From IMG/VR virus record IMGVR_UViG_3300006217_000002: 64,000 bases of DNA; one strand, written 5' to 3'. This document shows positions 26,576-53,128 of this stretch, in pieces. The number at the start of each line of letters is the position of its first letter. The stretch's first letter is position 1. The notes beneath the pieces are model-generated. The model worked only from the letters and a program-made list of their open reading frames with translations. It had not been told where the DNA came from and searched no databases. This DNA comes from a virus. Its lineage: Duplodnaviria > Heunggongvirae > Uroviricota > Caudoviricetes. A program made the position numbers and the translations under genes.

Positions 26576-29500
26576 ATGGATGAAATGAGATTTGAAGACA
26601 TCGGATATGGATCACATATATTAGAATATCCCAAAGATTTATCATTTTCTGAAAATGTTAAGTACGCAAGCGCTGAATTCAATAAACTTCATACAAGAAA
26701 AGTGAGACTTCCTGATGGTAAAGGAAATGTAATTTATCTATTAACTAATACATTCGATTCTGCTATTAGGATGATTAATTCCAATCACTTTATCATTCCT
26801 CCTTCATATACAAAAATTTTTTATCCTCAGTTTTCTGCAGGATCATTTATGGGAAAACGATATAAAGTTAATACTGGTAAATTGAAAAAGGATAGAGATG
26901 TGGTTATCAAATCGAAGACTAGGTTAAAACCATATCCTACAAAGAAACTTCAGAAGAGTATCGAAAATATTTTGTTTTCTACATCTGATATTTATGAAAC
27001 ATTCAAGCCTATAATGGATAGATATTCTATTAAACGTTGCTATGAAGAGTTCATGTCTAATTTCGTAGATGTGTTAACAAAACTAACTCCTGAAGTTACC
27101 CAACAGAAAGATGATCCTAACTGGAATAACAGGCTGATCATCATTGATGCAGATTCATTTAGCTTTAAAAAAGATGCTAAGTTAAATGATAATAAAACCA
27201 ATCCTCTATATCTAATATATCTTGCATTTCTGAGAAATAGAGATTTAAGTAATATGAATGTAGATATAGATATGATGATTTGTTCAAAGAATATGTTTCT
27301 GAAGTTCAATCCAGCAAAGACAACTATGAAGACTTGGAGCGTATTTAGACAAGGATTATTCAGAATCATAAATGCAAATTTGGATGATTATACAGAAAAA
27401 CTTTCTGAAGAGGAGAAGAACGAATTAGCAGAAACTGCAAACGATAAAATTGTAACAAATATAGTCAAGGATGCTACTGATCCTTATACTAAGAATGTAT
27501 CAGCATCTACTAAAGCTGTAGTAAATAATGCAGTTGAGAATAAACTTCGTAAACAAGTTGCGGTTGTTGTGGCTCAGGATCAGGAGATAAAAAAGACAAT
27601 AGGTGATGAAGAACCTAAACCTGACTTATTCAAGCAGAGCTTACAAAAACAATCTGCTGGATCTTCATTAATAAATCGAAATCCTATATCTAATCCTCTT
27701 GATAAGAAACATGAGAAATTATTTAAGAATATAGCAGGATATCAATCACTTGGATCTGATACTGGGCAGTATATTGACGATGACGATGAAGACTTCGATT
27801 ATCCTTATGAAGATGAGGATGAAGAAGGAGTGGAAGAATTCGAGGATGGTATCAAGACTGATGCTCAAGATCTTCTTATTAATGATGCTGACATTGCTGA
27901 AGAGATACTAGATGAAATTCAGGATAAGGTAGTTCCTTTGAAGAATGATAAGAATTCTCCTGTTAATTCAGCAAGAGATAAGAAGTTACGTGAAGAGCAA
28001 AAGAAAGTAGTAGTTCAAAATGAAACTATCGAACAGATACTTGAAAGAGATACATCGAATGTAAAAATTCAGGAAGAAGATAAATCTAGTGTAATGCATA
28101 CTACCAATCAGAATATGCATAAGATTAGATTTGCTAATTTTGATAAGACATACATCGATGAGATATACATGAGAGATATTGTGAAATGTTTCGATATGTT
28201 GAAAGATCAGGAGAGTCCTTTCTATATTACAAATATAGATATCAAAGATACATCTACTACACTTGATTTCAAAGATACCTGGACTGTTTCATTGAAAGAT
28301 GAATTAGGTAAGAAGCATACAATTAGAGTAGATATACCTAAGTTCCAAAATGACCGATTTATGTTAATCAACGGAACAAGGTTTATGATCTTAAAACAGA
28401 ACTTCTACAATCCTCTTGTCAAAGATACACCCGATACTGTTATCCTTACTACGAATTACAATAAGATTACTATACAGCGTAGATCCACTAAGTCTCTTGG
28501 TACTATAGAAAGAATCTTTAGCTTGATAAAGAAGAGCGGAGATTCTGATATGTTTATGACTGGAGATTCTAGCAAGGGAAACATGAAGTATATTTCTTCT
28601 CTTGAATACGATGAATTATCAAGAAGACTTTTCAGATTTAAGTCTGATAATTGTTTATTATGTTTCTCTAGAGACTATATTAAGGATAATATGGAAGATC
28701 AAATTCCTTCTGATATAAAAGGTAACGAGTTCTTTATAGGAATGGAAGGTAAAACTCCTGTACTGATAGATGAAGATACTGGATTGGATAGAACTGGAAG
28801 AACTATAGTCGATATTATAGAAGCTAATCTACCAGATCAATACAAAAAGATCTTTGATTCAATTAAAGGACCTAAACAGTCTATGTTTGTCGAGGGTAAA
28901 CTTGCAGGGGAATTTATTCCTATTATTTCTACATTGATAGTATGGATTGGATTAACAAAAGCTCTTGATAAAATGAATATTACTTGGAGATTTGATCCAA
29001 ATGCTAAACGAGTTCCTCAATCTACATCAAGTAAGAGGTATATAAGATTTGCTGATGGAGTACTTGAATATGAAGCTAAGACGTATGCAGAATTGATTCT
29101 TAATGGATTAGCTAAAATGAAACCAGAACAGTTCAAGTTTGAAGATTTCAACAGCGAAGTGGGATATGATGATTTCATTTACTCTCAATGGGGTAGTTAT
29201 AATGGAATTACAGAGTTGAAAAACTTTAAAGAATTCCTTATTGATCCTATAACAAAGAGAGTATGTCAGGATATGATGCTACCTGATGATCCAGCTGGAT
29301 TGTTAATAAGAGCAGTACAGTTATTATCTGACAATGCATATACCTCAAAAGCTTCTGATAAATCATACAGAACTAGATCTGTTGAAATTATTGCAGCAAT
29401 ACTTTATTCATGCTTAGCAACTCAATACAGAGCATACGTTAAATCAGGACGAAGAATACCTATGACACTGAATCAACGATGTGTAATATCTAAACTTATT

Positions 29501-31030
29501 GCTGAGAAGACTGTTGAACCTTATTCTACTCTTAATCCTGTAACTGAAGTTAGTAAAACGCATACTATATCTACGAAGGGATATAAAGGATCTAACTCAG
29601 AACATTCATATGATGAAGAGAAAAGATCTTATGATCCTTCAGCAATTGGAAAGTTGGCCATACAAACTTCTCCTGATAAGAATGTAGGTATAAATAGAGT
29701 GCTAGTTGTAGAACCTACAATTTCGAATGTAAGAGGATACAGGGAACCTGTTGATGATATTGAAGAACTCAAAGATGTTAATATCTTCTCTCCTGTAGAA
29801 ATGTTAACACCTGCAACAGCTAGAGTAGAAGATCCTATTCGTGTGTCCATTGGTGGTAAACAGTCAGGTCACGTTGTTCCTGTAGCAAATGCTTCCCCAT
29901 CATTAGTTTCTAATGGTTTTGATGAAGCATTACAGTTCCATTTATCTGATGACTTCGTAGTGAATGCTGAAGAAGATGGGAAGATAATTGAAATAAATGA
30001 AGAAGTTGGATTCATGGTAGTTCAGTATAAATCGGGTAAGAATAAAGCCATCAATATCAAACCTGAGGTTGTAAAGAACAGCGGTGGAGGATTCTATATC
30101 TCTAATAAGTTGAGACCAACTAAGACTAAAGTTGGAGAGACGTTTAAGAAAGACGAACCTCTCGCATATCATGATAAGTATTTCCAATATTCTAAGATTA
30201 ATGGTCTTAGATATGCTATTGGTCCATTAGCGAAGATAGCATTCATGTCAACATATAATACATATGAAGATGCAGGTATATGTACAGAAAGTTTGGCAGA
30301 ACGTATGAAGACTAGCGTTGTATATCAGGAACTTGGTAAGTTTAAGAAAAATAACAATATCATCTCTATGGTAGAAGTTGGGGACCATGTTAACATTGGA
30401 GATGTCTTAATCAAGTTTGATGTTTCTGTTGAAGATAATGAGTTAGCGAAATATTTATCAAAACTTTCAGATGATAATGCTGCTTTATTAGAAGAGGAAA
30501 CAAAAAATGATATCAAGACAATGCATGCTGGTAAAGTTATTGCTATTAAGGTATATACGTTATTAGCACCTGAACAACTATCTGAATCATTAGGAAGAGT
30601 AGTAAAGAAATATTTTGATAAGAGTACTACTAAGAAAGAATTCCTTGAGAAGTATGATCAAACTCCAGGAATTATGAAAGCTGGATATCTACTAACTGAT
30701 TCTACTGAACCTGTTAAGAGTAGATATAATTCAATAAAGGGTATTAAAGGAATAGATGTACTTATTGAAATTTATATCGAGCATGATGACGTTATGGGTG
30801 TTGGCGATAAGATCGCATTGTATTCAGCTAATAAACAGATCGTATCTGAAGTAATCCCTAAAGGTTGGGAACCGTACTCTGAGTTTAGGCCTGAGGAGGA
30901 AATATCTGCTTTCTCATCTCCTGGTACTATTGCAAGACGAATGACTCCAGGTTCATTATCTGTATCAGCATGTATGAAGTGTTTGATAGAGCTAAAGAGA
31001 AAAATAAAAAGTGAAATAAAGTATAGGTAA
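26576..31030 (+). CDS. Highly divergent RNA polymerase beta-like subunit (1484 aa)
   Basis: VGDKIALYSANKQIVSEVIPKGWEPY...PGTIARRMTPGSL (~30803-30960) resembles the rpoB motif GDKxAGRHGNKGV.SKI.P..DMPY...PSRMN.GQ. Confidence 0.5.
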   Translation: MDEMRFEDIGYGSHILEYPKDLSFSENVKYASAEFNKLHTRKVRLPDGKGNVIYLLTNTFDSAIRMINSNHFIIPPSYTKIFYPQFSAGSFMGKRYKVNTGKLKKDRDVVIKSKTRLKPYPTKKLQKSIENILFSTSDIYETFKPIMDRYSIKRCYEEFMSNFVDVLTKLTPEVTQQKDDPNWNNRLIIIDADSFSFKKDAKLNDNKTNPLYLIYLAFLRNRDLSNMNVDIDMMICSKNMFLKFNPAKTTMKTWSVFRQGLFRIINANLDDYTEKLSEEEKNELAETANDKIVTNIVKDATDPYTKNVSASTKAVVNNAVENKLRKQVAVVVAQDQEIKKTIGDEEPKPDLFKQSLQKQSAGSSLINRNPISNPLDKKHEKLFKNIAGYQSLGSDTGQYIDDDDEDFDYPYEDEDEEGVEEFEDGIKTDAQDLLINDADIAEEILDEIQDKVVPLKNDKNSPVNSARDKKLREEQKKVVVQNETIEQILERDTSNVKIQEEDKSSVMHTTNQNMHKIRFANFDKTYIDEIYMRDIVKCFDMLKDQESPFYITNIDIKDTSTTLDFKDTWTVSLKDELGKKHTIRVDIPKFQNDRFMLINGTRFMILKQNFYNPLVKDTPDTVILTTNYNKITIQRRSTKSLGTIERIFSLIKKSGDSDMFMTGDSSKGNMKYISSLEYDELSRRLFRFKSDNCLLCFSRDYIKDNMEDQIPSDIKGNEFFIGMEGKTPVLIDEDTGLDRTGRTIVDIIEANLPDQYKKIFDSIKGPKQSMFVEGKLAGEFIPIISTLIVWIGLTKALDKMNITWRFDPNAKRVPQSTSSKRYIRFADGVLEYEAKTYAELILNGLAKMKPEQFKFEDFNSEVGYDDFIYSQWGSYNGITELKNFKEFLIDPITKRVCQDMMLPDDPAGLLIRAVQLLSDNAYTSKASDKSYRTRSVEIIAAILYSCLATQYRAYVKSGRRIPMTLNQRCVISKLIAEKTVEPYSTLNPVTEVSKTHTISTKGYKGSNSEHSYDEEKRSYDPSAIGKLAIQTSPDKNVGINRVLVVEPTISNVRGYREPVDDIEELKDVNIFSPVEMLTPATARVEDPIRVSIGGKQSGHVVPVANASPSLVSNGFDEALQFHLSDDFVVNAEEDGKIIEINEEVGFMVVQYKSGKNKAINIKPEVVKNSGGGFYISNKLRPTKTKVGETFKKDEPLAYHDKYFQYSKINGLRYAIGPLAKIAFMSTYNTYEDAGICTESLAERMKTSVVYQELGKFKKNNNIISMVEVGDHVNIGDVLIKFDVSVEDNELAKYLSKLSDDNAALLEEETKNDIKTMHAGKVIAIKVYTLLAPEQLSESLGRVVKKYFDKSTTKKEFLEKYDQTPGIMKAGYLLTDSTEPVKSRYNSIKGIKGIDVLIEIYIEHDDVMGVGDKIALYSANKQIVSEVIPKGWEPYSEFRPEEEISAFSSPGTIARRMTPGSLSVSACMKCLIELKRKIKSEIKYR

Positions 31031-31034
31031 CATT

Positions 31035-31165: not shown

Positions 31166-31275
31166 CGCTTTGTTCGGTGGTAATTCGAACAATGGTTCTA
31201 ACTGCGGCGCGTTCGCCTGCAACTTGAACAATCTCGTTTCGAACTCGAACTGGAACATTGGCGCGGCTGTTTCTT
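31166..31275 (+). repeat. DGR template repeat (TR)
   Basis: 110 nt identical to the VR except at 11 adenines. Adenine-rich AAC/AAT codons in the VR reading frame. Confidence 0.9.
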
Positions 31276-31427
31276 TTATCCTCGTCGGGGCGTAAAACCC
31301 TTTTTGAATGCACTCTATCTTCCTCACCTCTTGGTGAAAATTTGCCCCATGCGTTGTTCGTTAGTAGCCTGTCGAAAGCGAAATAAGGGGATAAAAAGAG
31401 AGAACAGGCTATATCTAAAATGGAGGT

Positions 31428-32543
31428 TTGAATATGAAATCTTATAAAAATCTCTGGAAAATATTTATTTCAGAGAACACTATAAGGTATTCTATTTCAA
31501 AAGGTGCCATTGGGAAAAAGAAAAGGCGTGAAGTTAGAAAAATCATGAAAGATGTTGACGGTTACGTCGATGTCATTCATGATTACGCCTTGAATTTCCA
31601 TAATTATCATCATGAACCAGTCAAAATCCGTGATGGATGTAGTGGTAAGGAGCGAGAGATAATCGTTCCTAAATTTAATGAACACGTAATCCATCATATG
31701 GTGGTTTACGCGATGATGCCTTTGCTTACTAAAGGCATGTATAAACATACTTATTCTTCAATTCCTGGAAGAGGTCTTCATAAAGGAATGAAAAGAATCA
31801 GAACGTGGATTGACAATGATCCTAAAAATGTAAAGTATTGTCTTAAACTGGACATAAAAAAGTTCTTTAACTCGATTGATCATGAAATATTAATGAATAA
31901 ATTTAGAAAATATATTCATGACAATAAATTCTTGAAAATACTTCAAGAAATAGTTGATGCATCTCCTAATGGAATTCCTTTGGGATTTTATACTTCCCAT
32001 TGGTTTGCTAATTGGCTACTTCAACCTTTAGACCATTTTATCAAAGAAGAACTTCATATTGTTCACTATATAAGATATATGGATGATATGATTTTATTCG
32101 GGTCTAATAAGAGGCAATTGCATAAAGCTCGTAAAAAGATAGAAGAGTTTTTAAGTAATCTTAAATTAAAGATTAAAGATAATTGGCAATTGTTTAGATT
32201 CGATTATATCAAAAATGGAAAACATCATGGTCGTCCACTTGATTTCATAGGATTCAAATTCTATAGGGATAGAACTATTTTAAGGAAGAATATTATGTTA
32301 AGACTTACAAAGAAAGCGAGGAAAATCGAAAAGAAAGGTAAGTTTACAATTCATGACGCTCACCAAATGATGTCCTATTTAGGATGGATAGACTGGACTG
32401 ATACGTACAAAGTGTATACAAAGTACGTAGCTCCCTACATTAACTTTAAGAAGTGTAGAAAGTACATTTCACAGTATGATAAGAAACAGAGAAGACTTTT
32501 AAAAGAATTAAAGGAGGAATATAATTATGGAGCTGAATTTTAA
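31428..32543 (+). CDS. DGR reverse transcriptase
   Basis: IPGRGLHKGM, LDIKKFFNSIDHEIL, and YIRYMDDMILFG (YMDD, ~32076-32090). Sits 150 bp downstream of the TR. Confidence 0.9.
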   Translation: MNMKSYKNLWKIFISENTIRYSISKGAIGKKKRREVRKIMKDVDGYVDVIHDYALNFHNYHHEPVKIRDGCSGKEREIIVPKFNEHVIHHMVVYAMMPLLTKGMYKHTYSSIPGRGLHKGMKRIRTWIDNDPKNVKYCLKLDIKKFFNSIDHEILMNKFRKYIHDNKFLKILQEIVDASPNGIPLGFYTSHWFANWLLQPLDHFIKEELHIVHYIRYMDDMILFGSNKRQLHKARKKIEEFLSNLKLKIKDNWQLFRFDYIKNGKHHGRPLDFIGFKFYRDRTILRKNIMLRLTKKARKIEKKGKFTIHDAHQMMSYLGWIDWTDTYKVYTKYVAPYINFKKCRKYISQYDKKQRRLLKELKEEYNYGAEF

Positions 32544-32874
32544 GAAATCCCAGTCTCTAACTGAACCTGCATTGGTTGATAATACGTCTTCTAAGTATAC
32601 AACTTATATTAGACGTAATATTGAACTTGTAGAGAAGACAGAGAACAATTCAGAAGGTGGAGAGCCTACAACTGTTTCTGTATATGAATACGAAGAGGCT
32701 AAACTCACGAAACAGGAATATCTCATCTACCTTGCTGAACAGGCATCCGAGAGTAACAATACTGAGGCTCAGATGGCCATCGCTGAGCTTGCAGAATCTC
32801 TGGAAACTAACTACACAGAGCTTCAGTTAGCTCTTGCAGAGATGGCTGAAACAGTAACTACTATGATTAATTAA
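32527..32874 (+). CDS. Acidic hypothetical protein downstream of the RT
   Basis: ORF with AAGGAGG RBS. Confidence 0.45.
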   Translation: MELNFKKSQSLTEPALVDNTSSKYTTYIRRNIELVEKTENNSEGGEPTTVSVYEYEEAKLTKQEYLIYLAEQASESNNTEAQMAIAELAESLETNYTELQLALAEMAETVTTMIN

Positions 32875-33272: not shown

Positions 33273-33281
33273 AACAAGTAA

Positions 33282-33312
33282 ATATCAGGGGAGGATGATC
33301 CTCCCCTGATAT
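33282..33312 (+). terminator. Intrinsic terminator
   Basis: atatcaggggaggatgatcctcccctgatat plus a T-run. Confidence 0.65.
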
Positions 33313-33363
33313 TTTTATTTATATATTATTACTATATAAAAATAATGAAGGAGGAATATATAT

Positions 33364-34771: not shown

Positions 34772-35107
34772 ATGAACATTGCACAAATTAAAGAAATGCT
34801 TAAAACTCCTCAATATGGGTTTTTAAAAGAGAATCAGCATCTTGGTTCAAATGTTATTTTGCTGACTCTTGGAGGTAGTCATGCATATGGAATGAATAAC
34901 GAAAATTCAGATCTTGATGTGAGAGGAATATCTTTAAATTCAAAAGAGGAAGTTTTACTTGGAAGAGACTTTGAGCAGGTAGTAAACGTAGAGACGGATA
35001 CAACTGTGTATTCATTCAATAAAATGATTCAGCTTCTTACATCCAATAACCCTAATACGATTGAAATACTTGGATGCAGAAATGATCATTATGTCTACCT
35101 AACTTAG
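34772..35107 (+). CDS. Minimal nucleotidyltransferase (MNT, Pol-beta fold). It ends at an in-frame TAG.
   Basis: LGGSHAYGMNNENSDLDVRGI (GS...DxD) at ~34871-34920. RBS AAGGAGG. Confidence 0.7.
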   Translation: MNIAQIKEMLKTPQYGFLKENQHLGSNVILLTLGGSHAYGMNNENSDLDVRGISLNSKEEVLLGRDFEQVVNVETDTTVYSFNKMIQLLTSNNPNTIEILGCRNDHYVYLT

Positions 35108-35254
35108 TTAGGTAGACAATTAATCGAAAAGAGGAAAATATTTCTATCTAAAATTTGTATTCATACATTTGCAGGATATGCTGGTTCACAGCTGAGGAGA
35201 TTGGAAAATAAATCAAATCGATTGGTTGGGCAAGCTCAACAGGAGCAGTATATC

Positions 35255-35800: not shown

Positions 35801-35802
35801 TC

Positions 35803-41573: not shown

Positions 41574-41640
41574 TTATTCTCTCTCCTTTACTATTAATAA
41601 TAAATTTCTATATAAGATTAAAGAAAGGTGGATGGTAGCT

Positions 41641-42680: not shown

Positions 42681-42712
42681 AATAGAGAGGTGGGATATCC
42701 CACCTCTCTATT
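42681..42712 (+). terminator. Intrinsic terminator
   Basis: aatagagaggtgggatatcccacctctctatt. Confidence 0.6.
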
Positions 42713-42786
42713 ATGTTTATCCTAATAATTATTTTGAAGATATATTATCTAAATAATAATAGAAAATATTTTGGAGGTTTATATAG

Positions 42787-44900: not shown

Positions 44901-45713
44901 ATGGCATTGATACCAAGTCTTGATGATAAATTACCACCAACTGATTGGAAACCTGAACCTGTTCCAGAGGGTTCAGACTTTGCCCAATCATATATGGATG
45001 ATCAAAGTAGTGCGGATGAAACTGTTGACTATAGTGAATTGATAGCCGAATCTGCATTCTTAGGAGATTATCCATTAGCAACTATTCTTGAAGGAATTGA
45101 GACACAATTTTCTGATTATATAAATATGGAGGATAAAAGTAATTACGTAGACATATTTTATGATCAGCTTCATTATTCTTATGAAGAGGCACATAAAGAT
45201 CTGGAACATCCTCAGGAACTTAAAGAGGCGCTCGATAAGATCCTCGATACGTTCGTTGATAAACTTAATCAGTTATTCAATAAGCGTTTAACAATTTCGA
45301 TTAATGGTATTGAAGGAGAGGATATCGACGAAAACGAATTAGAATTCATCTTAAGGCGTTTATATGAGTTCTTCATACTTGGAGCTCGTAATAACTTTAA
45401 GGTTGTTATTTCATCTGACGTAAACTACAAGACTGCCAACATTAAAGTCGAAGATGATGACGTAGCATTCTTTAATAAGATTGATGAATTACTAAGTCAT
45501 TATAGTCCTCTCATTCTTGAAATAGGACCGATGGAGTTCCTTAAATACAGAGGAGATCAGGAAATATATGAACTCTTCGCAAGTGGAAAAGTTAATGGTA
45601 ATTTCCTGAGGAAATATACACCAAAGTTATATCAGAATGAAGAGTTCAGAGTAGAACTAATTAACCATATCATACTGACTAAGGAAGTTAAGGAGGAATT
45701 ATTAAATGAGTAA
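44901..45713 (+). CDS. Acidic hypothetical protein
   Basis: RBS AAGGAGG. Confidence 0.45.
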   Translation: MALIPSLDDKLPPTDWKPEPVPEGSDFAQSYMDDQSSADETVDYSELIAESAFLGDYPLATILEGIETQFSDYINMEDKSNYVDIFYDQLHYSYEEAHKDLEHPQELKEALDKILDTFVDKLNQLFNKRLTISINGIEGEDIDENELEFILRRLYEFFILGARNNFKVVISSDVNYKTANIKVEDDDVAFFNKIDELLSHYSPLILEIGPMEFLKYRGDQEIYELFASGKVNGNFLRKYTPKLYQNEEFRVELINHIILTKEVKEELLNE

Positions 45714-46398
45714 TCCAAATAATAGAACACAGACATCTACACAGATCAGGAATTTCTATTCAGAAGGAATGTCTTATTTGAATATGAAGTTTTATAACAC
45801 TAATCTTTCATTTCAGTTCTATCCATTCACAGGTAAAGATCAGAATGGAAGATCTACCTATGATACAAAGAATGGTGAAACTACGACAGTTAATTTTGAA
45901 GGTGCATTCACTCTATGGAAAGCAGCTAAAGATATCATTGACGGGAAAGTTACAGAGACTGATCTTCCTATTCCTTGTGCATCTGGAGCATCTCTGAAGC
46001 TTGAAAGAAAATTAAATCCTAATGGACAGTATGATACAATTCTTTCTATCAGTAAGAATAATCGTACAATTCCTTTCAAGTTTAACGTTATGCAGCAGCA
46101 GGTTAAAGAGAATAACCAGATTGTTACTAAGGTGATTGAATCTGGTCTTGGTGCTGTAATGATGACAATCGAAGGATATCTCACTGGTATTAATGCTGAT
46201 AGGCATCTTAATAAGTTAACTGATGATTTTGCTAAGATTCAGGAAGGTAACAATGGAAACGGTTACAATGGTCAGAATAATTATAAGAAACCTGTTAACA
46301 ATAATAATTACAGGAAGAATTATAATAATCAGGCATCATGGCAGCCTGCTCAGCCGAGCCAACAGCAGAATCTCAGTACTTATTCGCTCCCGAATTAA
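45706..46398 (+). CDS. Hypothetical protein with an N/Q/Y-rich low-complexity tail. It may be an SSB-like protein, but that is unsupported.
   Basis: RBS AAGGAGG. Tail NGNGYNGQNNYKKPVNNNNYRKNYNNQ. Confidence 0.35.
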   Translation: MSNPNNRTQTSTQIRNFYSEGMSYLNMKFYNTNLSFQFYPFTGKDQNGRSTYDTKNGETTTVNFEGAFTLWKAAKDIIDGKVTETDLPIPCASGASLKLERKLNPNGQYDTILSISKNNRTIPFKFNVMQQQVKENNQIVTKVIESGLGAVMMTIEGYLTGINADRHLNKLTDDFAKIQEGNNGNGYNGQNNYKKPVNNNNYRKNYNNQASWQPAQPSQQQNLSTYSLPN

Positions 46399-46430
46399 CC
46401 CTGTCTTTGTAATGTAAAGAACGGGTAAAT

Positions 46431-46466
46431 AGGATGAGGGATTGCCGCCCTCATCCTATTTTTTTT
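46431..46466 (+). terminator. Intrinsic terminator
   Basis: aggatgagggattgccgccctcatcct plus attttttttg. Confidence 0.7.
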
Positions 46467-46492
46467 GCTTGAAATAGATGGAGGTGATACTA

Positions 46493-47227
46493 ATGGGTTT
46501 TGAATCTAAATTTGATACGAATGCTTTCTTTCCTGGTGGTGCAGGAATGTTCATTCAGTATCATGATGTGTTGAAACCTGCATATTTATATGCAATTGTT
46601 AAAATGATAATTACTGATCAAACTTATGGTCTTCCTCTTTTTTTGATAAAAGATTTTTCAATTCTTTCCATAATAGAATGGTACATCAAAAGAAGATATT
46701 TAAATCCATTACAACAACTGGATTTTATGCATAAGTTAGATCCTGATGAATTAAATAATTTGATGCAATATATTTTACTCAACGACGATTCTATTTACAA
46801 GTTAAGTCCTCCATTAAATATTTGCAGGCTATTTGATGTATATAGACAACAGCATATGTCATTTCCAGTATACGTCTACAGCAAAGAAGAGGAGCGTTAT
46901 ATTCCAAAAGATTGTGAAAATATTCTTAGTGGAATTGATTATACTTATCTCCATGGAGATCTTAAAACTGCTATAAGCAAGTGCAATCAAAATTTCACTT
47001 ATATATTTTCTGATATAGAAATGGTCAATTTGGCTTCAAAAATTTTGAGAGGCACATATTCTCATATCCTATTAACACGAGATTATCGATATAATTACAT
47101 CGATAACTGTAAAACATTTAAATATGATTTGCAAAGTTTAGCTTCTGCAAATCCAGTAATACGGATTGGTACTACTATTGCAATGGATATAAGATTGATG
47201 CCTAATGCTTTTTCAAATATTATTTAG
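46493..47227 (+). CDS. Hypothetical protein
   Basis: gatggaggtgatactaATGG. Confidence 0.45.
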   Translation: MGFESKFDTNAFFPGGAGMFIQYHDVLKPAYLYAIVKMIITDQTYGLPLFLIKDFSILSIIEWYIKRRYLNPLQQLDFMHKLDPDELNNLMQYILLNDDSIYKLSPPLNICRLFDVYRQQHMSFPVYVYSKEEERYIPKDCENILSGIDYTYLHGDLKTAISKCNQNFTYIFSDIEMVNLASKILRGTYSHILLTRDYRYNYIDNCKTFKYDLQSLASANPVIRIGTTIAMDIRLMPNAFSNII

Positions 47228-47239: not shown

Positions 47240-48946
47240 ATGTTACAAATCAATTCACTTAAGCCTATAGAAAAGGCTCAAGAAATACCTAGATGGAAGT
47301 ATAAGAAACACGCATTTCCTAATGGGGCTGCATCATATTGGATTAAATGGAAGCTATATCCAGATGATGCACGATTCTTTTCATTACCAAAAACAATGAT
47401 TATCAAGTTTGATAAAGAGCTTGATCATATAGACAATGAGAACATTTCAGCTCTTAATGAATGGAAAGTTACAAAAATCTCATATTCTTCATATCTTCCT
47501 CGTATGTGTGAAGAATTAAATTTCTTCGAAACAATGTATGATGAAGAAGGAGAATTGATCACATCATTATTCAGAATAAAATATCTGATCGATGTTGATA
47601 ACATTTCCTATACAATGGCCAACTTTGCAGCATTCAAAGATTTGGTATATAAGACAATTTTTACCAATTCTATGAAGGAAAAAATTATCAGGATGATTGA
47701 AGAGAATTATGTTGATGACATAGAAGCAGAGAATATGAAGAACATGCAGAATCCTGATATGCTTTCAATCATGCAAAGAAAGAAGAAATCATTGGAATTC
47801 TTAAACGTACATGTGAAAGCTATGCTCCAGATTTCATTTGGTATAAAGATCTTGTCATTCATTATTAATCACTTTGCTGTTATGAGAAATATTAACATTC
47901 AAAAGAATATTGATATCTTCTATGATTTCTACATAGATATGTTTAATGTATTTGAGTTTGACTTTAATATCTACAATAAGATCTATGCATATGTAGAAAA
48001 TAAAGTTAATAGCTCATATAACTTTAACAAGTCTATCTTTGAACAGCAAGAGATAGAAGGAAAGGACAAATCTATCATTATAAATCAGCTTATGTCCAGG
48101 AACGTTATCATTGACAACTTCATCAAGTTCCAGATGCCTCAGACATGGAATTCAGTTAAGGAACAACCTAAAGAAAGAGTGTTATCTTTCTTAGCAAGTA
48201 TTATCAATACTCATATCTCTATCTTTATAATGCAGGTATTCAGACGTAATTTGATAGAGACATCTATAGTTCCAGATGCAGACGGTAATTCTAAAAATGA
48301 TCGTTATCGTGCATCAAAAATGAAGATCAATGAAGAGTATATCACAACTTGTTCTATGGATATGAGACAGCTTACAGATAAACTCTTTAAGAAATATGAG
48401 AATGAAATTACTCCTGAGGAAATTGAATACTACAGGAAAAACTTGAAACCGAATAGATTACATCAATTGATGATTGAAATCTATTTCTTCAATTACACTG
48501 CATCGTCACAAGAATTTGCTTTATTGAAAAACATAGATTGGTACAAGCTTCTTTTGATAATGAGAAAAGACATCATGAAGAGATTTAATATTACAAAGGA
48601 TTCTTTACTCGATGCTAGTCTGTGTTTGATTATGACAGCAAATATTGAAGAAACTCCTGTTGGAGAAAAGATGTATGTAAAAGATACAAAATACTTCAAT
48701 GACGATCCTGGTTATAATATGCTTATTGATAAATTCTACAGTACAATCGTGGAAATCAATGAGGATATAATTAAGAAGTTCTTAATAACATTTACCAATA
48801 GCAAGTACAGATTTGTACTGTATGAAGAACAGGATATACTCGGTGAAGAGATATCAATAAATAAGAGAGAGCTGATGTCAGAACTTATCAACTTCTTGAT
48901 TATGGCTAATACTAACATCTCACTGGAAAATATGTTTGATGATTAA
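47240..48946 (+). CDS. Hypothetical protein (568 aa)
   Basis: RBS TAGGAGG. Confidence 0.5.
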   Translation: MLQINSLKPIEKAQEIPRWKYKKHAFPNGAASYWIKWKLYPDDARFFSLPKTMIIKFDKELDHIDNENISALNEWKVTKISYSSYLPRMCEELNFFETMYDEEGELITSLFRIKYLIDVDNISYTMANFAAFKDLVYKTIFTNSMKEKIIRMIEENYVDDIEAENMKNMQNPDMLSIMQRKKKSLEFLNVHVKAMLQISFGIKILSFIINHFAVMRNINIQKNIDIFYDFYIDMFNVFEFDFNIYNKIYAYVENKVNSSYNFNKSIFEQQEIEGKDKSIIINQLMSRNVIIDNFIKFQMPQTWNSVKEQPKERVLSFLASIINTHISIFIMQVFRRNLIETSIVPDADGNSKNDRYRASKMKINEEYITTCSMDMRQLTDKLFKKYENEITPEEIEYYRKNLKPNRLHQLMIEIYFFNYTASSQEFALLKNIDWYKLLLIMRKDIMKRFNITKDSLLDASLCLIMTANIEETPVGEKMYVKDTKYFNDDPGYNMLIDKFYSTIVEINEDIIKKFLITFTNSKYRFVLYEEQDILGEEISINKRELMSELINFLIMANTNISLENMFDD

Positions 48947-50373: not shown

Positions 50374-51225
50374 ATGGCAGATCGTAGTGATTTAGCAAAA
50401 AGAATGAAGGAAAATTATGAGAATCGTGCAAAGCATTCATTAATTAGGAGGATGCCAGTTGCAATCAGAATTGATGGTAAAGCTTTCCATAGTTTTACAA
50501 GAGGATTTAAGATTCCATTTGATGAAGTATTGATTCAGTCGATGCAGGAGACAATGAAATATCTTTGTGAACATGTACAGGGATGCGTATTAGGATATCA
50601 TCAATCAGATGAGATCACCCTTATTCTTGTTGATTATCAAAATTTACATTCTGATGCCTGGTTCGATTATAAACAAAGCAAAGTAGAATCAATTTCTGCG
50701 TCCATGGCAACAATGGCATTCAATAAGTCGTTTGAAATCAATGCTAACAACTACATCGCTAATGTGCATGTGGGAGGGGGCGTTCCTACAGATGGCAAGT
50801 ATATAGAATCGCTTAAAGCTGCGATTGAAAATAAAGCGATGTTTGATTCAAGGTCGTTCAATATTCCTAAGGAAGAAGTAACAAACTTGATCTTATGGAG
50901 ACAACAAGATGCAACAAGAAATTCTATTGAGATGGTTGGTAGAACATATTTCTCTGATAAGAGATTATATAAGATAAACACCAATGGTATTCAGGATCTT
51001 TTATTTACAGAAAAAGGAGTAAATTGGAATGATTTTCCTACTCATCAAAAGAGAGGTTCTTGTTGTATTAAAGAAAATTACCTGGTAGATACAGAAGGAA
51101 ATGAACATCCATTATCAGAGGATAAACCTGAAATGTCTCTACGTAGTCGTTGGGTTATAGATAAGGAAATTCCTATCTTTACAGGAGATGGAAGAGAATA
51201 TATTGAGAAACTTATCAATATTTAA
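50374..51225 (+). CDS. Thg1-like protein (tRNA-His guanylyltransferase family 3'-5' nucleotidyltransferase) with a C-terminal extension
   Basis: VAIRIDGKAFHSFT. GYHQSDEITLIL (the GQSDE-type motif, ~50596-50631). LILWRQQDATRN (WRQxD). Confidence 0.75.
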   Translation: MADRSDLAKRMKENYENRAKHSLIRRMPVAIRIDGKAFHSFTRGFKIPFDEVLIQSMQETMKYLCEHVQGCVLGYHQSDEITLILVDYQNLHSDAWFDYKQSKVESISASMATMAFNKSFEINANNYIANVHVGGGVPTDGKYIESLKAAIENKAMFDSRSFNIPKEEVTNLILWRQQDATRNSIEMVGRTYFSDKRLYKINTNGIQDLLFTEKGVNWNDFPTHQKRGSCCIKENYLVDTEGNEHPLSEDKPEMSLRSRWVIDKEIPIFTGDGREYIEKLINI

Positions 51226-51745: not shown

Positions 51746-53128
51746 ATGCGAATAAAATTTTCACGATTGAATTTTGAATCAGAATGCATGTATGATTGCA
51801 TAAACGGAAAAGGATTCCTTATTTCAGATACTCCGTTTTCAGATGTAGATAAGTCCGTTAGAAATATGGATGGTCCTAGATCTCCTAGATATGGTACTAC
51901 ATACGGTGATACTAATGAGTTTATGGATAGATATCACTGTAAATGTGGTAAATATATAGGAGCTGCATTTGAAGGAGAAGTGTGTCCGGAATGTGGAACT
52001 AAGATTGAATATAAGGACGTAGACATTCTATATACAGGATGGCTTAACTTCTATCCTTATAAAATTATTAATCCTTTATTCTATCAACGTTTACAATCAG
52101 CATTATCAAAGAAGAACTTAGAGAATATCATCTCTAATGAAAATATAATAACATCTCAAGGTATCATAAGAAAACATACTGATACGATTGAAGTTAAGAA
52201 ATCTATGCTTACATATCATAATATTGGTATGAAAGAGTTCTATGATAACTATGAAGAGATCATGCTTTATTATAAGAGCAAAAGAAAACAGAAGGCTGAA
52301 TTGATAGATTCACTTATAAGAGATAAAGATCTTGTATGGACTGACAAGTTACCAGTATATTCTACAGTATTGCGTCCTCAAGGAATTACAGTTGAATCAT
52401 ATTACTTCTCTCCTATTGATAAACAGATTCATCCTTTAACAAACATCACGTTGAACTTAAAGAAAGCATCTGCTATTGAAGTTCCACTGTACTTATATCA
52501 AGCTCAGATGAGAGCTAATGAACTGTGGAATTTGAATTTCTCGTTGATTGATGGTAAACATGGATGGACAAGAGCTAATGTGCTTGGTGGAGAATTTAAC
52601 TTCTCAGGTAGATCAGTTATTGTCCTTGATCCTACATTACACATCGATGAAGTTGACATTTCATACAAAGCCTTCATCGTACAGTATAGGGGATTAATAC
52701 TCCGAAGAATCATTAAAGATAAAGGATGGACTATTACACGTGCTGCGAATTTCTTATCATCTAAATTCGAATATGATGATTATGTGTACAAGATAATGTG
52801 TGATGTGATAGAAGAGGACAAGCCTAAGCTTATACTTAATAGAAATCCTACAATCACATTCGGAAGTATTTTATTAATGTCAATACGAAGCGTCAAGAAA
52901 GATTCCGGAGATGTAACTTTAGCAATTCCTAGTGCCATACTTCCTGGTCTAAACGCTGATTTTGACGGTGATGTTTTAAATACATTAGCATTAGAAATGG
53001 AAGAGTTCTGGGAGTTGTTTGATGGATTTACTCCTACTAATATGCTGATTAATCGTACTAATAGCTCTATCAAGTATGATATATCGGCGTTGGAGAATAT
53101 TACTATTGCTATTCTTAGTGATAAATAA
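51746..53128 (+). CDS. RNA polymerase beta-prime-like subunit fragment (zinc-ribbon plus catalytic DFDGD region)
   Basis: NADFDGDVLNTLA (~52952-52990) matches the universal beta-prime NADFDGD. N-terminal CKCGKY...CPECGTKI zinc motif. Confidence 0.7.
   Translation: MRIKFSRLNFESECMYDCINGKGFLISDTPFSDVDKSVRNMDGPRSPRYGTTYGDTNEFMDRYHCKCGKYIGAAFEGEVCPECGTKIEYKDVDILYTGWLNFYPYKIINPLFYQRLQSALSKKNLENIISNENIITSQGIIRKHTDTIEVKKSMLTYHNIGMKEFYDNYEEIMLYYKSKRKQKAELIDSLIRDKDLVWTDKLPVYSTVLRPQGITVESYYFSPIDKQIHPLTNITLNLKKASAIEVPLYLYQAQMRANELWNLNFSLIDGKHGWTRANVLGGEFNFSGRSVIVLDPTLHIDEVDISYKAFIVQYRGLILRRIIKDKGWTITRAANFLSSKFEYDDYVYKIMCDVIEEDKPKLILNRNPTITFGSILLMSIRSVKKDSGDVTLAIPSAILPGLNADFDGDVLNTLALEMEEFWELFDGFTPTNMLINRTNSSIKYDISALENITIAILSDK

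What the first reader, a model, noticed from the sequence alone, without database searches (positions are those of the whole stretch)
26576..53128. Phage-encoded divergent multisubunit RNA polymerase genes (beta-like 1484 aa; beta-prime-like with NADFDGD)
The ORF at 51746-53128 carries an N-terminal Cys4 zinc element and the invariant NADFDGD catalytic loop of beta-prime. The 1484-aa ORF at 26576-31030 carries VGDKIALYSANKQIVSEVIP..WEPY...PGTIARRMTPGSL. This resembles the conserved rpoB C-terminal segment GDKMAGRHGNKGVISKINP..DMPY...PSRMNIGQ. Split, highly divergent beta and beta-prime genes are typical of jumbo-phage non-virion and virion RNAPs such as phiKZ and AR9. Further fragments of both subunits are likely among the unassigned large ORFs, for example 47240-48946. 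The beta-like gene sits exactly between the DGR VR and the TR/RT.
Basis: partly seen in the sequence, partly recalled or inferred. Interest (0 to 1): 0.6.

Follow-up and report, generated by a model that had tools for sequence, protein, structure and literature searches.

The report
Jumbo-phage RNA polymerase subunit genes
This stretch of an uncultivated ~285-kb mouse-gut phage carries three genes for the phage's own two bacterial-type RNA polymerases (one packaged in the virus particle, one made after infection), a known AR9/phiKZ-type arrangement, so it is a new member of a known kind.

Summary
ORF 26576-31030 (1484 aa) is a beta-like RNA polymerase subunit. ORF 51746-53128 (460 aa) is a beta-prime N-terminal subunit with a Zn ribbon and NADFDGD.

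Two corrections:
- **Two enzymes, not one.** The 1484-aa protein is the ortholog of AR9 gp189, the large beta piece of the virion-packaged RNAP. It covers bacterial beta from its N-terminal conserved region through the second double-psi barrel and stops there. The 460-aa protein is the ortholog of AR9 gp270 / phiKZ gp55, the non-virion RNAP beta-prime N-terminal piece.
- **ORF 47240-48946 is an RNAP subunit, but not a beta or beta-prime fragment.** It is a very divergent homolog of AR9 gp226, the sigma-like promoter-specificity subunit. Only structure prediction and profile-profile comparison detected this.

The 600-aa ORF 53875-55677 is not an RNAP part. No other beta or beta-prime fragment was detected in the window; the beta-prime C-terminal piece lies elsewhere in relatives.

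An intergenic motif, ATATATTAT-N6-A, matches the core of the AR9 early (virion RNAP) promoter and is strongly enriched. The DGR flanking the beta gene is real.

Verdict: a new member of a known kind, of moderate-to-low interest.

The parts
26576..31030 (+). Large beta-like subunit of the virion RNA polymerase (vRNAP 'N-beta'; ortholog of AR9 gp189, phiR1-37 g099, Moabite gp178). Residues 1 to ~518 are a family-specific N-terminal extension, with an acidic stretch at aa 400-470. Residues ~519-1484 are collinear with bacterial beta residues ~117-885 (T. aquaticus numbering). The protein ends ~25 aa after the SPxxIxxRMT motif.
   Evidence: PHROG 14872 and 3148, E=1e-141 and 3e-134, and Pfam Rpb2_6. 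tblastn to AR9 g189, annotated 'virion RNAP subunit'. Family profile against PDB bacterial beta, E=8e-21 in 4 collinear segments, and against AR9 nvRNAP beta-C 7S00_C, E=5e-15. All 6 aligned family members end at the same point.
28331..28384 (+). DIPKFQNDRFMLINGTRF, the counterpart of the bacterial beta N-terminal conserved block (hLPLMTedGsFIINGadRV, Taq beta 117-151). It suggests that the N-terminal half of beta is part of this polypeptide.
   Evidence: segment 1; weak on its own but collinear with the others; for coordinates.
30263..30274 (+). YEDA, which aligns with the bacterial beta 'NFEDA' block. E1231 and D1232 are invariant in the family alignment.
30803..30835 (+). GDKIALYSANK, the beta double-psi-barrel motif carrying the two catalytic lysines (K1412, K1420). 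D1411, K1412 and K1420 are invariant in the family.
   Evidence: The role of the two lysines is described in PMC7824862.
26528..26539 (+). ACAGCTTCTTAA, a block conserved 37-48 nt upstream of the vRNAP beta start codon in the window and four relatives, amid otherwise unconserved sequence. Its geometry xACA-N6-TA resembles the AR9 late (nvRNAP) promoter AACA-N6-TA/G. It is a candidate late promoter or regulatory element (inferred).
   Evidence: Alignment A5. The block is unique in the window and is found upstream of the beta gene in each of the four relatives; the only other hit is in the unrelated Fusobacterium-phage locus L022. AR9 g189 has AACAaatagaTA about 30 nt upstream of its start. Consensus from PMC5312081.
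31036..31063 (+). 12-bp G+C-rich hairpin 6 nt after the beta stop codon, terminator-like with a weak T tail. It would close the beta transcription unit before the DGR template repeat.
51746..53128 (+). Beta-prime N-terminal subunit of the non-virion RNA polymerase (ortholog of AR9 gp270 and phiKZ gp55). It ends ~50 aa after the catalytic loop, at the split site typical of jumbo phages.
   Evidence: PDB 7S00_d/7S01_d E=1e-41 over aa 91-447; phiKZ 7OGP_A E=1.5e-13; bacterial beta-prime and cyanobacterial gamma about 1e-12 to 1e-14. AR9 g270 is annotated 'non-virion RNAP subunit'. PHROG 2987 E=1.7e-58.
51938..51994 (+). CxC-x13-CxxC zinc ribbon (CKCGKYIGAAFEGEVCPEC). In jumbo phages this element is reported for nvRNAP beta-prime.
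   Evidence: PMC7824862 states that nvRNAPs, like bacterial beta-prime, carry the Zn ribbon.
52952..52972 (+). NADFDGD, the Mg-binding catalytic loop of the beta-prime double-psi barrel. It is the only such motif in the window.
47240..48946 (+). [quoted passage not shown] The gp226 2.1bis helix V205-V206-I207-W208-T209-Y210 aligns to K264-S265-I266-F267-E268-Q269.
   Evidence: AF2 model, pLDDT 76. Foldseek against PDB hits only 7S01_A and 7UM0_A (E=4.6e-12 and 4e-10, prob 1.0); the next hit has E>1. hhalign of the family against a gp226 family alignment gives prob 100%, E=2.2e-51 over 473 columns. Distant relatives hit phrog_25005 (E to 6.6e-44) and 7S01_A by phmmer (3.2e-34). Direct searches with the window protein found nothing.
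42740..42748 (+). ATATATTAT, the early-promoter-like motif (core of the AR9 vRNAP promoter AAATATATATTAT-N6-G). It lies 47 nt upstream of the PolB gene, which heads a same-strand run that includes the gp226-like gene. It follows a 16-bp hairpin at 42679-42714. Other forward intergenic copies are at 6023, 8158, 16599, 19059, 33321, 38115, 53175 and 55734.
   Evidence: 13 copies against 5.85+/-2.35 expected. On the intergenic forward strand there are 9 copies against 0.92+/-0.93 expected, and 0 of 500 shuffles reached 9. The seventh base after the motif is A in 8 and G in 1 of the 9 forward intergenic copies. The motif is conserved upstream of PolB in L011 and L016. Terminator-then-motif pairs appear. 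Consensus from PMC5312081.
51689..51697 (+). CTATATTAT-N6-A, a one-mismatch copy of the motif 57 nt upstream of the beta-prime N start. It is a possible early promoter for the nvRNAP gene (weak).
   Evidence: AR9 vRNAP is reported to be sensitive to single deviations (PMC5312081), so this site is uncertain.
24426..26045 (-). Context, not part of the RNAP: tail-protein gene that is the DGR target. The variable repeat is at 24440-24552, at its 3' end.
   Evidence: PHROG 5302 tail protein, E=5.6e-84.
31166..32543 (+). Context, not part of the RNAP: DGR template repeat (31166-31278) and reverse transcriptase (31428-32543).
   Evidence: Pfam RVT_1 E=8e-21 and PHROG 1423 E=3e-102. TR/VR are 89% complementary and all mismatches fall at TR adenines.

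Best explanation
The window comes from a ~285-kb jumbo phage of the mouse gut, probably infecting Clostridia/Lachnospiraceae. It belongs to the RNAP-encoding ('group 1', phiKZ/AR9-like) jumbo phages. It carries three genes for two separate phage multisubunit RNA polymerases.

**The three genes**
1. 26576-31030 encodes the large beta-like subunit of the virion RNAP. After a ~520-aa family-specific N-terminal extension it contains bacterial beta from its N-terminal conserved region through the flap-bearing double-psi barrel with the two catalytic lysines. It ends there, so the beta C-terminal module must be a separate protein.
2. [quoted passage not shown]
3. [quoted passage not shown]

The remaining subunits are not in the window. 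They are the vRNAP beta-prime pieces and beta C-terminal piece, and the nvRNAP beta N-terminal, beta C-terminal and beta-prime C-terminal pieces.

**Inferred mechanism, by analogy with AR9 and phiKZ**
- The virion enzyme is packaged, injected with the DNA, and transcribes early genes from ATATATTAT-N6-A promoters.
- Those early genes would include the replication genes headed by PolB. The gp226-like gene lies further along the same strand, although a strong hairpin at 46427-46461 intervenes. Early expression of beta-prime N is also possible but rests only on a one-mismatch motif.
- The non-virion holoenzyme then transcribes late genes, including the virion RNAP beta gene, which has its own conserved upstream element and a downstream hairpin.

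**Shown:** gene identities, orthology, intact catalytic motifs, motif enrichment.
**Inferred:** packaging, timing, promoter function.
For: - **Beta-like subunit.** PHROG E=1e-141 and Pfam Rpb2_6. The best phage matches are vRNAP beta genes of AR9/PBS1, Staphylococcus SA1/S6, phiR1-37 ('phage structural protein') and Moabite ('virion-associated'). The family profile matches bacterial beta at E=8e-21 in four collinear segments spanning Taq beta 117-885. It matches AR9 nvRNAP beta-C only at 5e-15. E1231, D1232, D1411, K1412 and K1420 are invariant, and all family members share the same C-terminal end.
- **Beta-prime N.** PDB 7S00_d E=1.6e-41. AR9 g270 is annotated as non-virion. There is only one match place in AR9.
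- **Fifth subunit.** Foldseek finds only AR9 gp226 chains (E=4.6e-12). hhalign gives 100%, E=2.2e-51. Transitive PHROG and PDB hits support this. The protein is 65-85% identical across relatives, more conserved than PolB.
- **Selection for function.** In relatives all three genes are interrupted by insertions at conserved sites. One is a confirmed group I intron just before the NADFDGD codons. This mirrors AR9.
- **Promoters.** ATATATTAT is enriched, strand-biased (9 forward, 2 reverse), followed by a purine at +7, placed right after terminator hairpins and conserved upstream of PolB in relatives. AR9 early and late consensus sequences, and g189 being a late gene, come from PMC5312081. Sigma-70-type promoter matches are not enriched.
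- **Genome context.** Split divergent PolB, RNase H, and 285-kb contigs from mouse gut. The nvRNAP beta-prime C piece is present elsewhere in relatives.
Against: - Nothing here is experimental. Virion versus non-virion assignment rests on orthology at ~30% identity to characterised phages.
- The other seven or so subunits were not seen, because they lie outside the window, so completeness of both enzymes in this phage is assumed. It is supported for beta-prime C only in relatives.
- The DPBB fold of the 1484-aa protein was not checked by structure prediction.
- The promoter assignments are pattern-based. The motif lacks the upstream AAAT of the AR9 consensus. The copy before beta-prime N has a mismatch.
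- A strong hairpin (46427-46461) lies between PolB and the gp226-like gene, so co-transcription is uncertain.
- The conserved block upstream of the beta gene is unique to that gene. It may be a gene-specific regulatory element rather than a general late promoter.
- The uracil-discriminating Val206 and the G-stacking Tyr210 of gp226 are not conserved (Ser/variable and Gln). Promoter recognition cannot simply be copied from AR9.
Confidence: 0.82

Rival explanations
1. The 1484-aa beta-like and 460-aa beta-prime-like proteins are partners in one and the same phage RNA polymerase. This is the simplest reading of the finding.
For: Both lie on the same strand within 27 kb. Together they would supply both double-psi barrels.
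Against: - Each has a clear ortholog in a different AR9 enzyme: g189 virion and g270 non-virion.
- The 1484-aa protein has the vRNAP-type split after the barrel. AR9 nvRNAP beta is split before it (7S00_C aligns only to aa 1072-1466).
- The Zn ribbon is reported as an nvRNAP beta-prime feature.
- The review PMC7598289 describes different split sites in the two enzymes.
Confidence: 0.06
2. The RNAP genes, at least the non-virion set embedded in the PolB / RNase H cluster, mainly serve DNA replication as the primer-synthesising enzyme rather than gene expression.
For: - The gp226-like and beta-prime N genes sit on the same strand as the divergent PolB and RNase H.
- No primase was seen in the window.
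- Iyer et al. 2021 raise this possibility for group 1 jumbo phages, which lack primases (PMC7824862).
Against: - In AR9 and phiKZ the nvRNAP is a demonstrated late-gene transcriptase (PMC7598289, PMC5312081).
- The window covers only about a fifth of the genome, so the absence of a primase is not established.
- The two roles are not mutually exclusive.
Confidence: 0.07
3. ORF 47240-48946 is an unrelated all-helical protein, for example a structural or phage-nucleus shell protein, and its match to gp226 is a helical-repeat artefact.
For: - No direct Pfam, PHROG, PDB or tblastn hit.
- Foldseek TM-scores are low (0.39/0.47) with large rmsd.
- Model pLDDT is only 76.
- In phiKZ the nucleus-shell gene gp54 neighbours gp55 (from memory).
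Against: - hhalign reaches E=2.2e-51 across 473 collinear columns, nearly end to end.
- Intermediate relatives hit both the window family (E~1e-11) and gp226 (E=3e-34).
- The only significant PDB fold hits are the two gp226 chains, and no chimallin entry appears.
- Low TM is expected for a two-domain protein whose N-terminal domain is mobile (PMC9209446).
Confidence: 0.03

Closest known systems
Bacillus phage AR9/PBS1 (Takahashivirus): virion RNAP beta gp189; non-virion RNAP beta-prime N gp270 and promoter-specificity subunit gp226 (PDB 7S00, 7S01, 7UM0, 7UM1)
   Same: - One-to-one orthologs of all three window genes.
- The same split points: beta after the barrel, beta-prime after NADFDGD-type loop.
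- The core of the early promoter, ATATATTAT followed by N6 and a purine start.
- A late-promoter-like ACA-N6-TA element before the vRNAP beta gene.
- Homing introns in these genes within the lineage.
   Different: - Only ~30% identity for beta and beta-prime N, and ~18-20% for the sigma-like subunit.
- The window genes are intron-free, whereas AR9 g189 has 6 exons.
- The window protein has NADFDGD where gp270 has SGDYDGD.
- The gp226-like protein is 568 aa against 464 aa.
- It lacks the conserved Val206 and Tyr210 of dU-phage gp226.
- The host is a gut anaerobe rather than Bacillus.
- The vRNAP beta gene is flanked by a DGR.
Pseudomonas phage phiKZ and relatives: nvRNAP gp55 (beta-prime N) and gp68; vRNAP beta family (PHROG 3148)
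   Same: - Same dual-RNAP strategy and same subunit families.
- The gp68 C-terminal domain is the only other structure resembling gp226 (PMC9209446).
   Different: - More distant: 7OGP_A E=1.5e-13 against 1e-41 for AR9.
- phiKZ late promoters (TATG) and its nucleus-forming biology are not indicated here.
- No chimallin-like fold was found for the ORF tested.
Yersinia phage phiR1-37 (g099, g274) and Staphylococcus jumbo phages SA1/S6
   Same: - These are the best database matches for beta (SA1, 32% over aa 436-1483) and beta-prime N (phiR1-37, 31%).
- g099 is annotated as a structural (virion) protein.
- Protein lengths are similar, 1393-1418 aa.
   Different: phiR1-37 and S6 are reported as uracil-DNA phages (PMC7598289). 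Whether the window phage is one is unknown, and the gp226 Val marker is not kept.
Bacterial RNA polymerase beta (RpoB) and beta-prime (RpoC)
   Same: - The catalytic architecture is shared: beta-prime NADFDGD and Zn ribbon, the beta ED pair, and GDK..NK with two lysines.
- The conserved beta blocks are collinear.
   Different: - The subunits are split into several polypeptides.
- Beta carries a ~520-aa N-terminal extension.
- No alpha or omega subunit is expected (PMC7598289).
- The specificity factor is sigma-like only in structure.

Membership tests
Jumbo-phage virion RNAP large beta-like subunit (AR9 gp189 / phiR1-37 g099 / PHROG 3148, 14872) | Near-full-length, significant similarity to the family profile and to characterised members | tested here: met
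   PHROG 14872 E=1.3e-141 (aa 416-1478) and PHROG 3148 E=3.1e-134 (aa 260-1477). tblastn to AR9, PBS1, SA1 and phiR1-37 down to E=3e-137.
Jumbo-phage virion RNAP large beta-like subunit (AR9 gp189 / phiR1-37 g099 / PHROG 3148, 14872) | Beta double-psi barrel with the two catalytic lysines, and the ED pair | tested here: met
   GDKIALYSANK (K1412, K1420) and YEDA (E1231, D1232) are invariant in the 6-member alignment and aligned to bacterial beta. This is a sequence-level test only.
Jumbo-phage virion RNAP large beta-like subunit (AR9 gp189 / phiR1-37 g099 / PHROG 3148, 14872) | vRNAP-type split: the polypeptide ends just after the barrel, and the beta C-terminal module is encoded separately | tested here: met
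   Homology to Taq beta stops at residue ~885 of 1119. All family members end at the same column. The separate beta C-terminal gene was not located because it is not in the window.
Jumbo-phage virion RNAP large beta-like subunit (AR9 gp189 / phiR1-37 g099 / PHROG 3148, 14872) | DPBB fold seen in a 3-D model | not tested
In addition, the protein exceeds the 1200-aa limit and would have needed to be cut.
Jumbo-phage virion RNAP large beta-like subunit (AR9 gp189 / phiR1-37 g099 / PHROG 3148, 14872) | Physically present in virions and injected | not testable with these tools
   Known only for orthologs, from the annotations of phiR1-37 g099, Moabite gp178 and AR9 g189.
Jumbo-phage non-virion RNAP beta-prime N subunit (AR9 gp270 / phiKZ gp55) | Beta-prime double-psi barrel with the DxDGD Mg-binding loop; the protein ends shortly after it | tested here: met
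   NADFDGD at aa 403-409 of 460. Pfam Rpb1_2 E=1.5e-9. Aligned end to end with gp270 (7S00_d, aa 91-447 to 73-434).
Jumbo-phage non-virion RNAP beta-prime N subunit (AR9 gp270 / phiKZ gp55) | N-terminal Zn ribbon (reported for nvRNAP and bacterial beta-prime) | tested here: met
   CKCGKY-x10-CPEC at aa 65-83. The literature basis is PMC7824862.
Jumbo-phage non-virion RNAP beta-prime N subunit (AR9 gp270 / phiKZ gp55) | Closer to nvRNAP than to vRNAP beta-prime N paralogs | tested here: met
   The only AR9 match at E<1e-5 is g270 (1 place in the record). The phiKZ-group hits fall at the gp55 position (PhiPA3 054). The phiKZ PDB match is PHIKZ055 (7OGP_A).
Jumbo-phage non-virion RNAP beta-prime N subunit (AR9 gp270 / phiKZ gp55) | Early gene transcribed by the virion RNAP | tested here: inconclusive
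   Only a one-mismatch motif copy lies 57 nt upstream (51689). AR9 g270 has an exact early promoter.
gp226/gp68 sigma-like promoter-specificity subunit of nvRNAP | Fold and profile homology to gp226 over both domains | tested here: met
   Foldseek 7S01_A E=4.6e-12, prob 1.0, 540 columns. hhalign prob 100%, E=2.2e-51, 473 columns.
gp226/gp68 sigma-like promoter-specificity subunit of nvRNAP | 2.1bis helix residues that read the template-strand UUGU motif (V206, I207, Y210 in gp226) | tested here: not met
   V206 aligns to S265, a position that varies in the clade (S, I, T, P, A, V). Y210 aligns to the invariant Q269. I207 and W208 are kept as I266 and F267. This bears on U-specific recognition, not on membership of the wider family. 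The distant relatives in alignment A4 also vary at this position.
gp226/gp68 sigma-like promoter-specificity subunit of nvRNAP | Binds the nvRNAP core and confers promoter-specific initiation | not testable with these tools
   This requires biochemistry, or at least a complex prediction with the missing subunits.
Uracil-DNA jumbo phages (AR9/PBS1, phiR1-37, S6) | dU replaces dT in the genome, with no thymidylate synthase or dUTPase, and an absolutely conserved Val in the gp226 2.1bis helix | tested here: inconclusive
   The closest cultured relatives include the reported dU phages AR9/PBS1, phiR1-37 and S6. However, the Val is not conserved. The nucleotide-metabolism gene set cannot be judged from a 64-kb window.

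The most novel reading that the evidence does not exclude
This gut-Clostridia clade is an AR9-like dual-RNAP jumbo-phage lineage whose sigma-like subunit has naturally lost the uracil-discriminating valine. The position is Ser or variable, while its neighbours are invariant. The lineage may therefore use template-strand promoter recognition on thymine DNA, or recognise a different motif (ACAG..TCTTAA).

The same phage also carries a captured host sigma region 4 plus alpha-CTD fusion, which might interfere with host RNAP. That would be a second, host-directed layer of transcription control, not previously reported for RNAP-encoding jumbo phages.
Probability: 0.15. Interest if true: 0.55.

Novelty: new member of a known kind. 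Interest (0 to 1): 0.3.

Why it matters
The result extends the AR9/phiKZ-type two-polymerase transcription strategy to an abundant, uncultivated group of ~250-300-kb phages of the mammalian gut. The identical gp226-like protein occurs on contigs in 103 blocks of the public collection.

- **Detection of the fifth subunit.** The sigma-like subunit escapes ordinary annotation. It can be recovered by structure and profile-profile comparison.
- **Conservation of the early promoter.** The core of the virion-RNAP early promoter appears conserved between a Bacillus phage and gut phages whose polymerases are only ~30% identical. This gives a concrete, testable promoter for an enzyme that, as of the 2020 review, had not been purified from any phage.
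- **Natural variation at gp226 Val206.** The variation at this position is a ready-made test set for the published model of uracil versus thymine discrimination.

None of this changes the known picture of jumbo-phage transcription.

Tried and rejected
- **600-aa ORF 53875-55677 as the missing beta-prime C-terminal piece.** Rejected. There is no Pfam, PHROG, PDB or tblastn hit. A confident AF2 model (pLDDT 88.5) is beta-rich with no significant PDB fold match and only weak beta-helix adhesin or tailspike likeness. The true beta-prime C homolog of relatives (L004:11982-14087, PHROG 3015 E=2.7e-54) has no counterpart in the window (tblastn E>0.1).
- **568-aa ORF as a phage-nucleus shell (chimallin) protein.** I considered this because the phiKZ shell gene neighbours gp55 (from memory). 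Rejected because the fold search returned only gp226 chains.
- **Direct sequence searches for the 568-aa ORF.** Pfam, PHROG, PDB phmmer and a family profile, and tblastn against phages all returned nothing. The word-indexed protein search found only relatives at 65% identity or more. The exhaustive profile search was needed to go further.
- **Other large unassigned ORFs as RNAP fragments.** These were 6809-8125, 8491-9423, 14979-15761, 35803-36732, 39957-41573, 41548-42468, 44901-45713, 45706-46398 and 46478-47227. None gave an RNAP hit.
- **ACAGCTTCTTAA as a general late promoter.** It occurs only before the vRNAP beta gene in the window and its relatives, plus one hit in the unrelated locus L022.
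- **Host sigma-70 promoters.** They are not enriched.
- **Rfam scan of the window.** No family reached threshold.
- **Extending the contig beyond the window ends by exact-protein look-up.** This failed.

Full report
**1. Observation**

- The two ORFs are at the stated coordinates: 26576-31030 (1484 aa) and 51746-53128 (460 aa).
- Every quoted motif is present.
  - In the 1484-aa protein: GDKIALYSANK at aa 1410-1420 and PGTIARRMT at aa 1449-1457.
  - In the 460-aa protein: CKCGKY-x10-CPEC at aa 65-83 and NADFDGD at aa 403-409.
- A six-frame scan finds no other DxDGD-type loop in the window.
- The window is AT-rich (about 33% G+C), with nearly all genes on the plus strand.

**2. The 1484-aa protein**

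- Family matches: Pfam RNA_pol_Rpb2_6 above its curated cut-off (E=1.6e-5, aa 1172-1459). Two ~1400-position PHROG 'RNAP beta' families match at E=1.3e-141 and 3.1e-134.
- Best matches among 50,697 phage records are at ~30% identity over aa ~440-1480. They are Staphylococcus jumbo phages (SA1, S6), Bacillus PBS1/AR9, Yersinia phiR1-37, Listeria LPJP1, Fusobacterium JD-Fnp phages and Serratia Moabite.
- The matched genes carry virion annotations.
  - AR9 g189: 'virion RNAP subunit, beta N-terminus, Rpb2 domain 6'.
  - phiR1-37 g099: 'phage structural protein'.
  - Moabite gp178: 'virion-associated'.
- All family members are 1393-1503 aa and end at the same alignment column, just after an SPxSIxxRMT motif.
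- A profile of six members hits solved bacterial beta subunits at E=8e-21, in four collinear segments:

| Window protein (aa) | T. aquaticus beta (aa) | Conserved block |
|---|---|---|
| 573-607 | 117-151 | PLMT..G.FIINGxxRV |
| 986-1053 | 397-464 | NPL...GPGGL / fork region |
| 1059-1244 | 526-697 | ends in ..YEDA |
| 1395-1460 | 822-885 | GDK..NKG ... PSRMN |

- The protein therefore holds beta from near its N-terminus through the flap-bearing double-psi barrel.
  - It lacks the last ~230 residues of beta.
  - It carries an extra ~520-aa N-terminal extension, with an acidic stretch at aa 400-470.
- The same profile matches AR9 non-virion beta-C (7S00_C) only over aa 1072-1466, at 5e-15. The two enzymes are split at different places, as the review PMC7598289 states.
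- E1231, D1232, D1411, K1412 and K1420 are invariant, so the subunit is probably catalytically competent.

**3. The 460-aa protein**

- Family matches: Pfam RNA_pol_Rpb1_2 (E=1.5e-9) and PHROG 2987 (E=1.7e-58).
- Against solved structures the top hits are AR9 non-virion beta-prime N, 7S00_d and 7S01_d (E~1e-41, aa 91-447). These are followed by cyanobacterial gamma, phiKZ gp55 (7OGP_A, 1.5e-13) and bacterial beta-prime.
- AR9 g270 is annotated 'non-virion RNAP subunit, beta-prime N-terminus' and is the only AR9 locus matched.
- The Zn ribbon is described as a feature shared by bacterial beta-prime and jumbo-phage non-virion enzymes (PMC7824862).
- The two ORFs of the finding therefore belong to two different polymerases.

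**4. ORF 47240-48946**

- Direct searches gave nothing.
- Even so, it is the most conserved protein of the neighbourhood across related viral contigs. It is 65-85% identical, against 52-64% for PolB. In several relatives it is interrupted by ~350-nt insertions, as the RNAP genes are.
- An exhaustive profile search found 257 relatives of ~500-560 aa.
  - The distant ones hit phrog_25005 'RNA polymerase' (E down to 6.6e-44).
  - They also hit PDB 7S01_A (E=3.2e-34).
  - 7S01_A is AR9 gp226, annotated 'non-virion RNAP subunit'.
- An AlphaFold model (pLDDT 76) matches only 7S01_A and 7UM0_A in the PDB (E=4.6e-12 and 4e-10). The next hit has E>1.
- hhalign of the window family against a gp226-centred alignment gives probability 100%, E=2.2e-51 over 473 columns.
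- gp226 is the sigma-like, promoter-specificity subunit of the AR9 non-virion holoenzyme (PMC9209446).
- In that alignment the gp226 2.1bis helix V205-V206-I207-W208-T209-Y210 corresponds to K264-S265-I266-F267-E268-Q269.
  - The uracil-discriminating Val206 is reported as absolutely conserved in dU phages. Here it is Ser, and the position varies in the clade.
  - The neighbouring positions are invariant.
  - Whether this phage has uracil DNA or U-specific promoters therefore stays open.

**5. Other candidates**

- The 600-aa ORF downstream of beta-prime N gives a confident, mostly beta model with no significant fold match and no RNAP similarity.
- In a more distant group of relatives the gene after beta-prime N is a 701-aa PHROG 3015 'RNAP beta subunit' protein. 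This is probably beta-prime C, given its GDAGYLARNL bridge-helix-like and CxxxxCCHVC motifs.
  - It has 56-59% identical homologs on 246-289-kb contigs of the clade.
  - It has no counterpart in the window.
- No other large ORF in the window hits an RNAP family.

**6. How it probably works**

- AR9 early promoters, used by the injected virion enzyme, read AAATATATATTAT-N6-G. Late promoters, used by the non-virion holoenzyme, read AACA-N6-TA/G. g189 is a late gene, and g226 and g270 have early promoters (PMC5312081).
- In the window, apart from the ribosome-binding site, the most enriched intergenic word is ATATATTAT.
  - It occurs 13 times against 5.85+/-2.35 expected.
  - On the forward strand of intergenic DNA it occurs 9 times against 0.92+/-0.93 expected. 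None of 500 shuffles reached 9.
  - The seventh base after the motif is A in 8 and G in 1 of those 9 forward intergenic copies.
  - Three sites follow strong hairpin terminators directly.
- One site lies 47 nt before PolB and is conserved there in relatives.
  - The same-strand gene run is PolB, three ORFs, gp226-like, RNase H and Thg1.
  - A strong hairpin (46427-46461) lies between PolB and the gp226-like gene, so co-transcription is uncertain.
- A one-mismatch copy lies 57 nt before beta-prime N.
- Upstream of the virion beta gene, a 12-nt block ACAGCTTCTTAA is conserved in five relatives amid unconserved sequence.
  - It has the ACA-N6-TA geometry of the AR9 late promoter. AR9 g189 itself has AACAaatagaTA in the same place.
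  - It is specific to this gene apart from one hit in the unrelated locus L022.
- A hairpin follows the beta stop codon.
- These patterns fit the AR9 cascade: virion enzyme, then early genes including non-virion subunits, then late genes including virion subunits. They are inference, not proof.

**7. Context and origin**

- The DGR is genuine.
  - TR is at 31166-31278 and VR at 24440-24552, at the 3' end of a tail gene on the minus strand.
  - All 12 differences are at TR adenines.
  - The RT is at 31428-32543.
- The beta gene sits between VR and TR here and in relative L017. The target and RT genes were not detected in the fetched flanks around the beta gene in L012, L018 or L019. The arrangement therefore looks like local gene order, not a functional link.
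- The identical gp226-like protein lies on mouse-gut contigs of up to 285 kb. Metagenome bins label relatives as Lachnospiraceae or Roseburia.
- The split divergent PolB and RNase H are the 'group 1' jumbo-phage core (PMC7598289, PMC7824862).

**8. Verdict**

- This is a correct and well-observed finding of a known system in a new, uncultivated host range.
- The added value is threefold: the assignment of the genes to two enzymes, the recovery of the hidden sigma-like subunit, and a candidate early promoter.
- Novelty: new member of a known kind. Interest: 0.3.

Noticed in passing
window 21335-22846 (+): A 503-aa protein combines sigma-70 region 4 (aa 44-94, E=8.5e-15) with an RNA polymerase alpha C-terminal domain. 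The alpha-CTD (aa 156-215, E=2.2e-27) is about 60% identical to Firmicutes alpha-CTD (PDB 8I23_A, 3GFK_B). RNAP-encoding jumbo phages are reported to lack sigma factors and alpha (PMC7824862, PMC7598289). It may be a decoy or modulator of host RNAP, and it also points to a Firmicutes host. A 37%-identical homolog exists in L010.
   Followed up: partly
window 19059-19711 (+), upstream of 19712-21277: The 760-nt gap before a Ro60/TROVE-like vWA 'RNA-binding protein' gene (PHROG 850, E=1.6e-125) starts with an ATATATTAT site. It holds at least five copies of (T)AGACnnnnACAGCAA, at 19112, 19364, 19455, 19556 and 19629. Four of these (19112, 19455, 19556, 19629) have a complementary arm downstream. 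This looks like an array of stem-loop ncRNAs, possibly Y-RNA-like partners. Rfam gives no hit at threshold.
   Followed up: partly
L004-L016, L018, L019 (relatives); L015 6811-7142: In related phages the beta-prime N gene is broken into up to five pieces. The vRNAP beta and gp226-like genes are also interrupted, by inserts of 200-3000 nt at conserved sites. One insert is a confirmed group I intron (RF00028, 60 bits) immediately before the NADFDGD codons. Several inserts carry their own ATATATTAT motif. The window copies of all three genes are uninterrupted.
   Followed up: partly
window 53875-55677 (+): This 600-aa protein is conserved at 46-94% identity in the clade. It gives a confident AF2 model (pLDDT 88.5) that is mostly beta strands, with no significant match in the PDB and only weak likeness to beta-helix adhesins and tailspikes. 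One homolog is labelled 'flagellin' by NCBI. It sits between a terminator (53797-53830) and another terminator (55688-55718).
   Followed up: partly
window 24290-24327 and 24440-24552 (-); 31166-32874 (+): DGR details. An extended perfect 17-bp hairpin lies just downstream of the VR on the target strand. A conserved 115-aa ORF (32527-32874) follows the RT and has no Pfam hit. The target-beta-TR-RT order is shared with L017 only.
   Followed up: partly
window 42679-42748, 33280-33329, 55688-55742 (+): There is a recurrent 'strong hairpin terminator, then ATATATTAT within 5-25 nt' architecture. It suggests tightly insulated early transcription units.
   Followed up: partly
window 34772-38108 and 50374-51225 (+): This is a cluster of tRNA and RNA end-processing enzymes. 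It includes an RlaP-like nucleotidyltransferase (34772-35107, plus 35201-35800), a CCA-adding enzyme with an HD domain (36726-38108) and a Thg1 tRNA-His guanylyltransferase (50374-51225). No tRNA gene is found in the window.
   Followed up: no
window 9763-11631 and 42787-44832 (+): The divergent family B DNA polymerase appears to be split into two genes 31 kb apart (PHROG 3011 and PF20286/PHROG 2927). This matches the 'split PolB' core of RNAP-encoding jumbo phages.
   Followed up: no
window 61226-63084 (+): An NAD salvage pair is present: a NadR-like NMN adenylyltransferase/kinase (61226-62368) and a PnuC-like NMN transporter (62368-63084).
   Followed up: no
L004 11982-14087 versus window 53129-55677: In the more distant (human-microbiome) relatives the nvRNAP beta-prime C gene directly follows beta-prime N. 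In the window that position is occupied by a CYTH-domain gene (53300-53779) and the 600-aa ORF. The two halves of beta-prime have therefore been separated by rearrangement in this lineage.
   Followed up: partly
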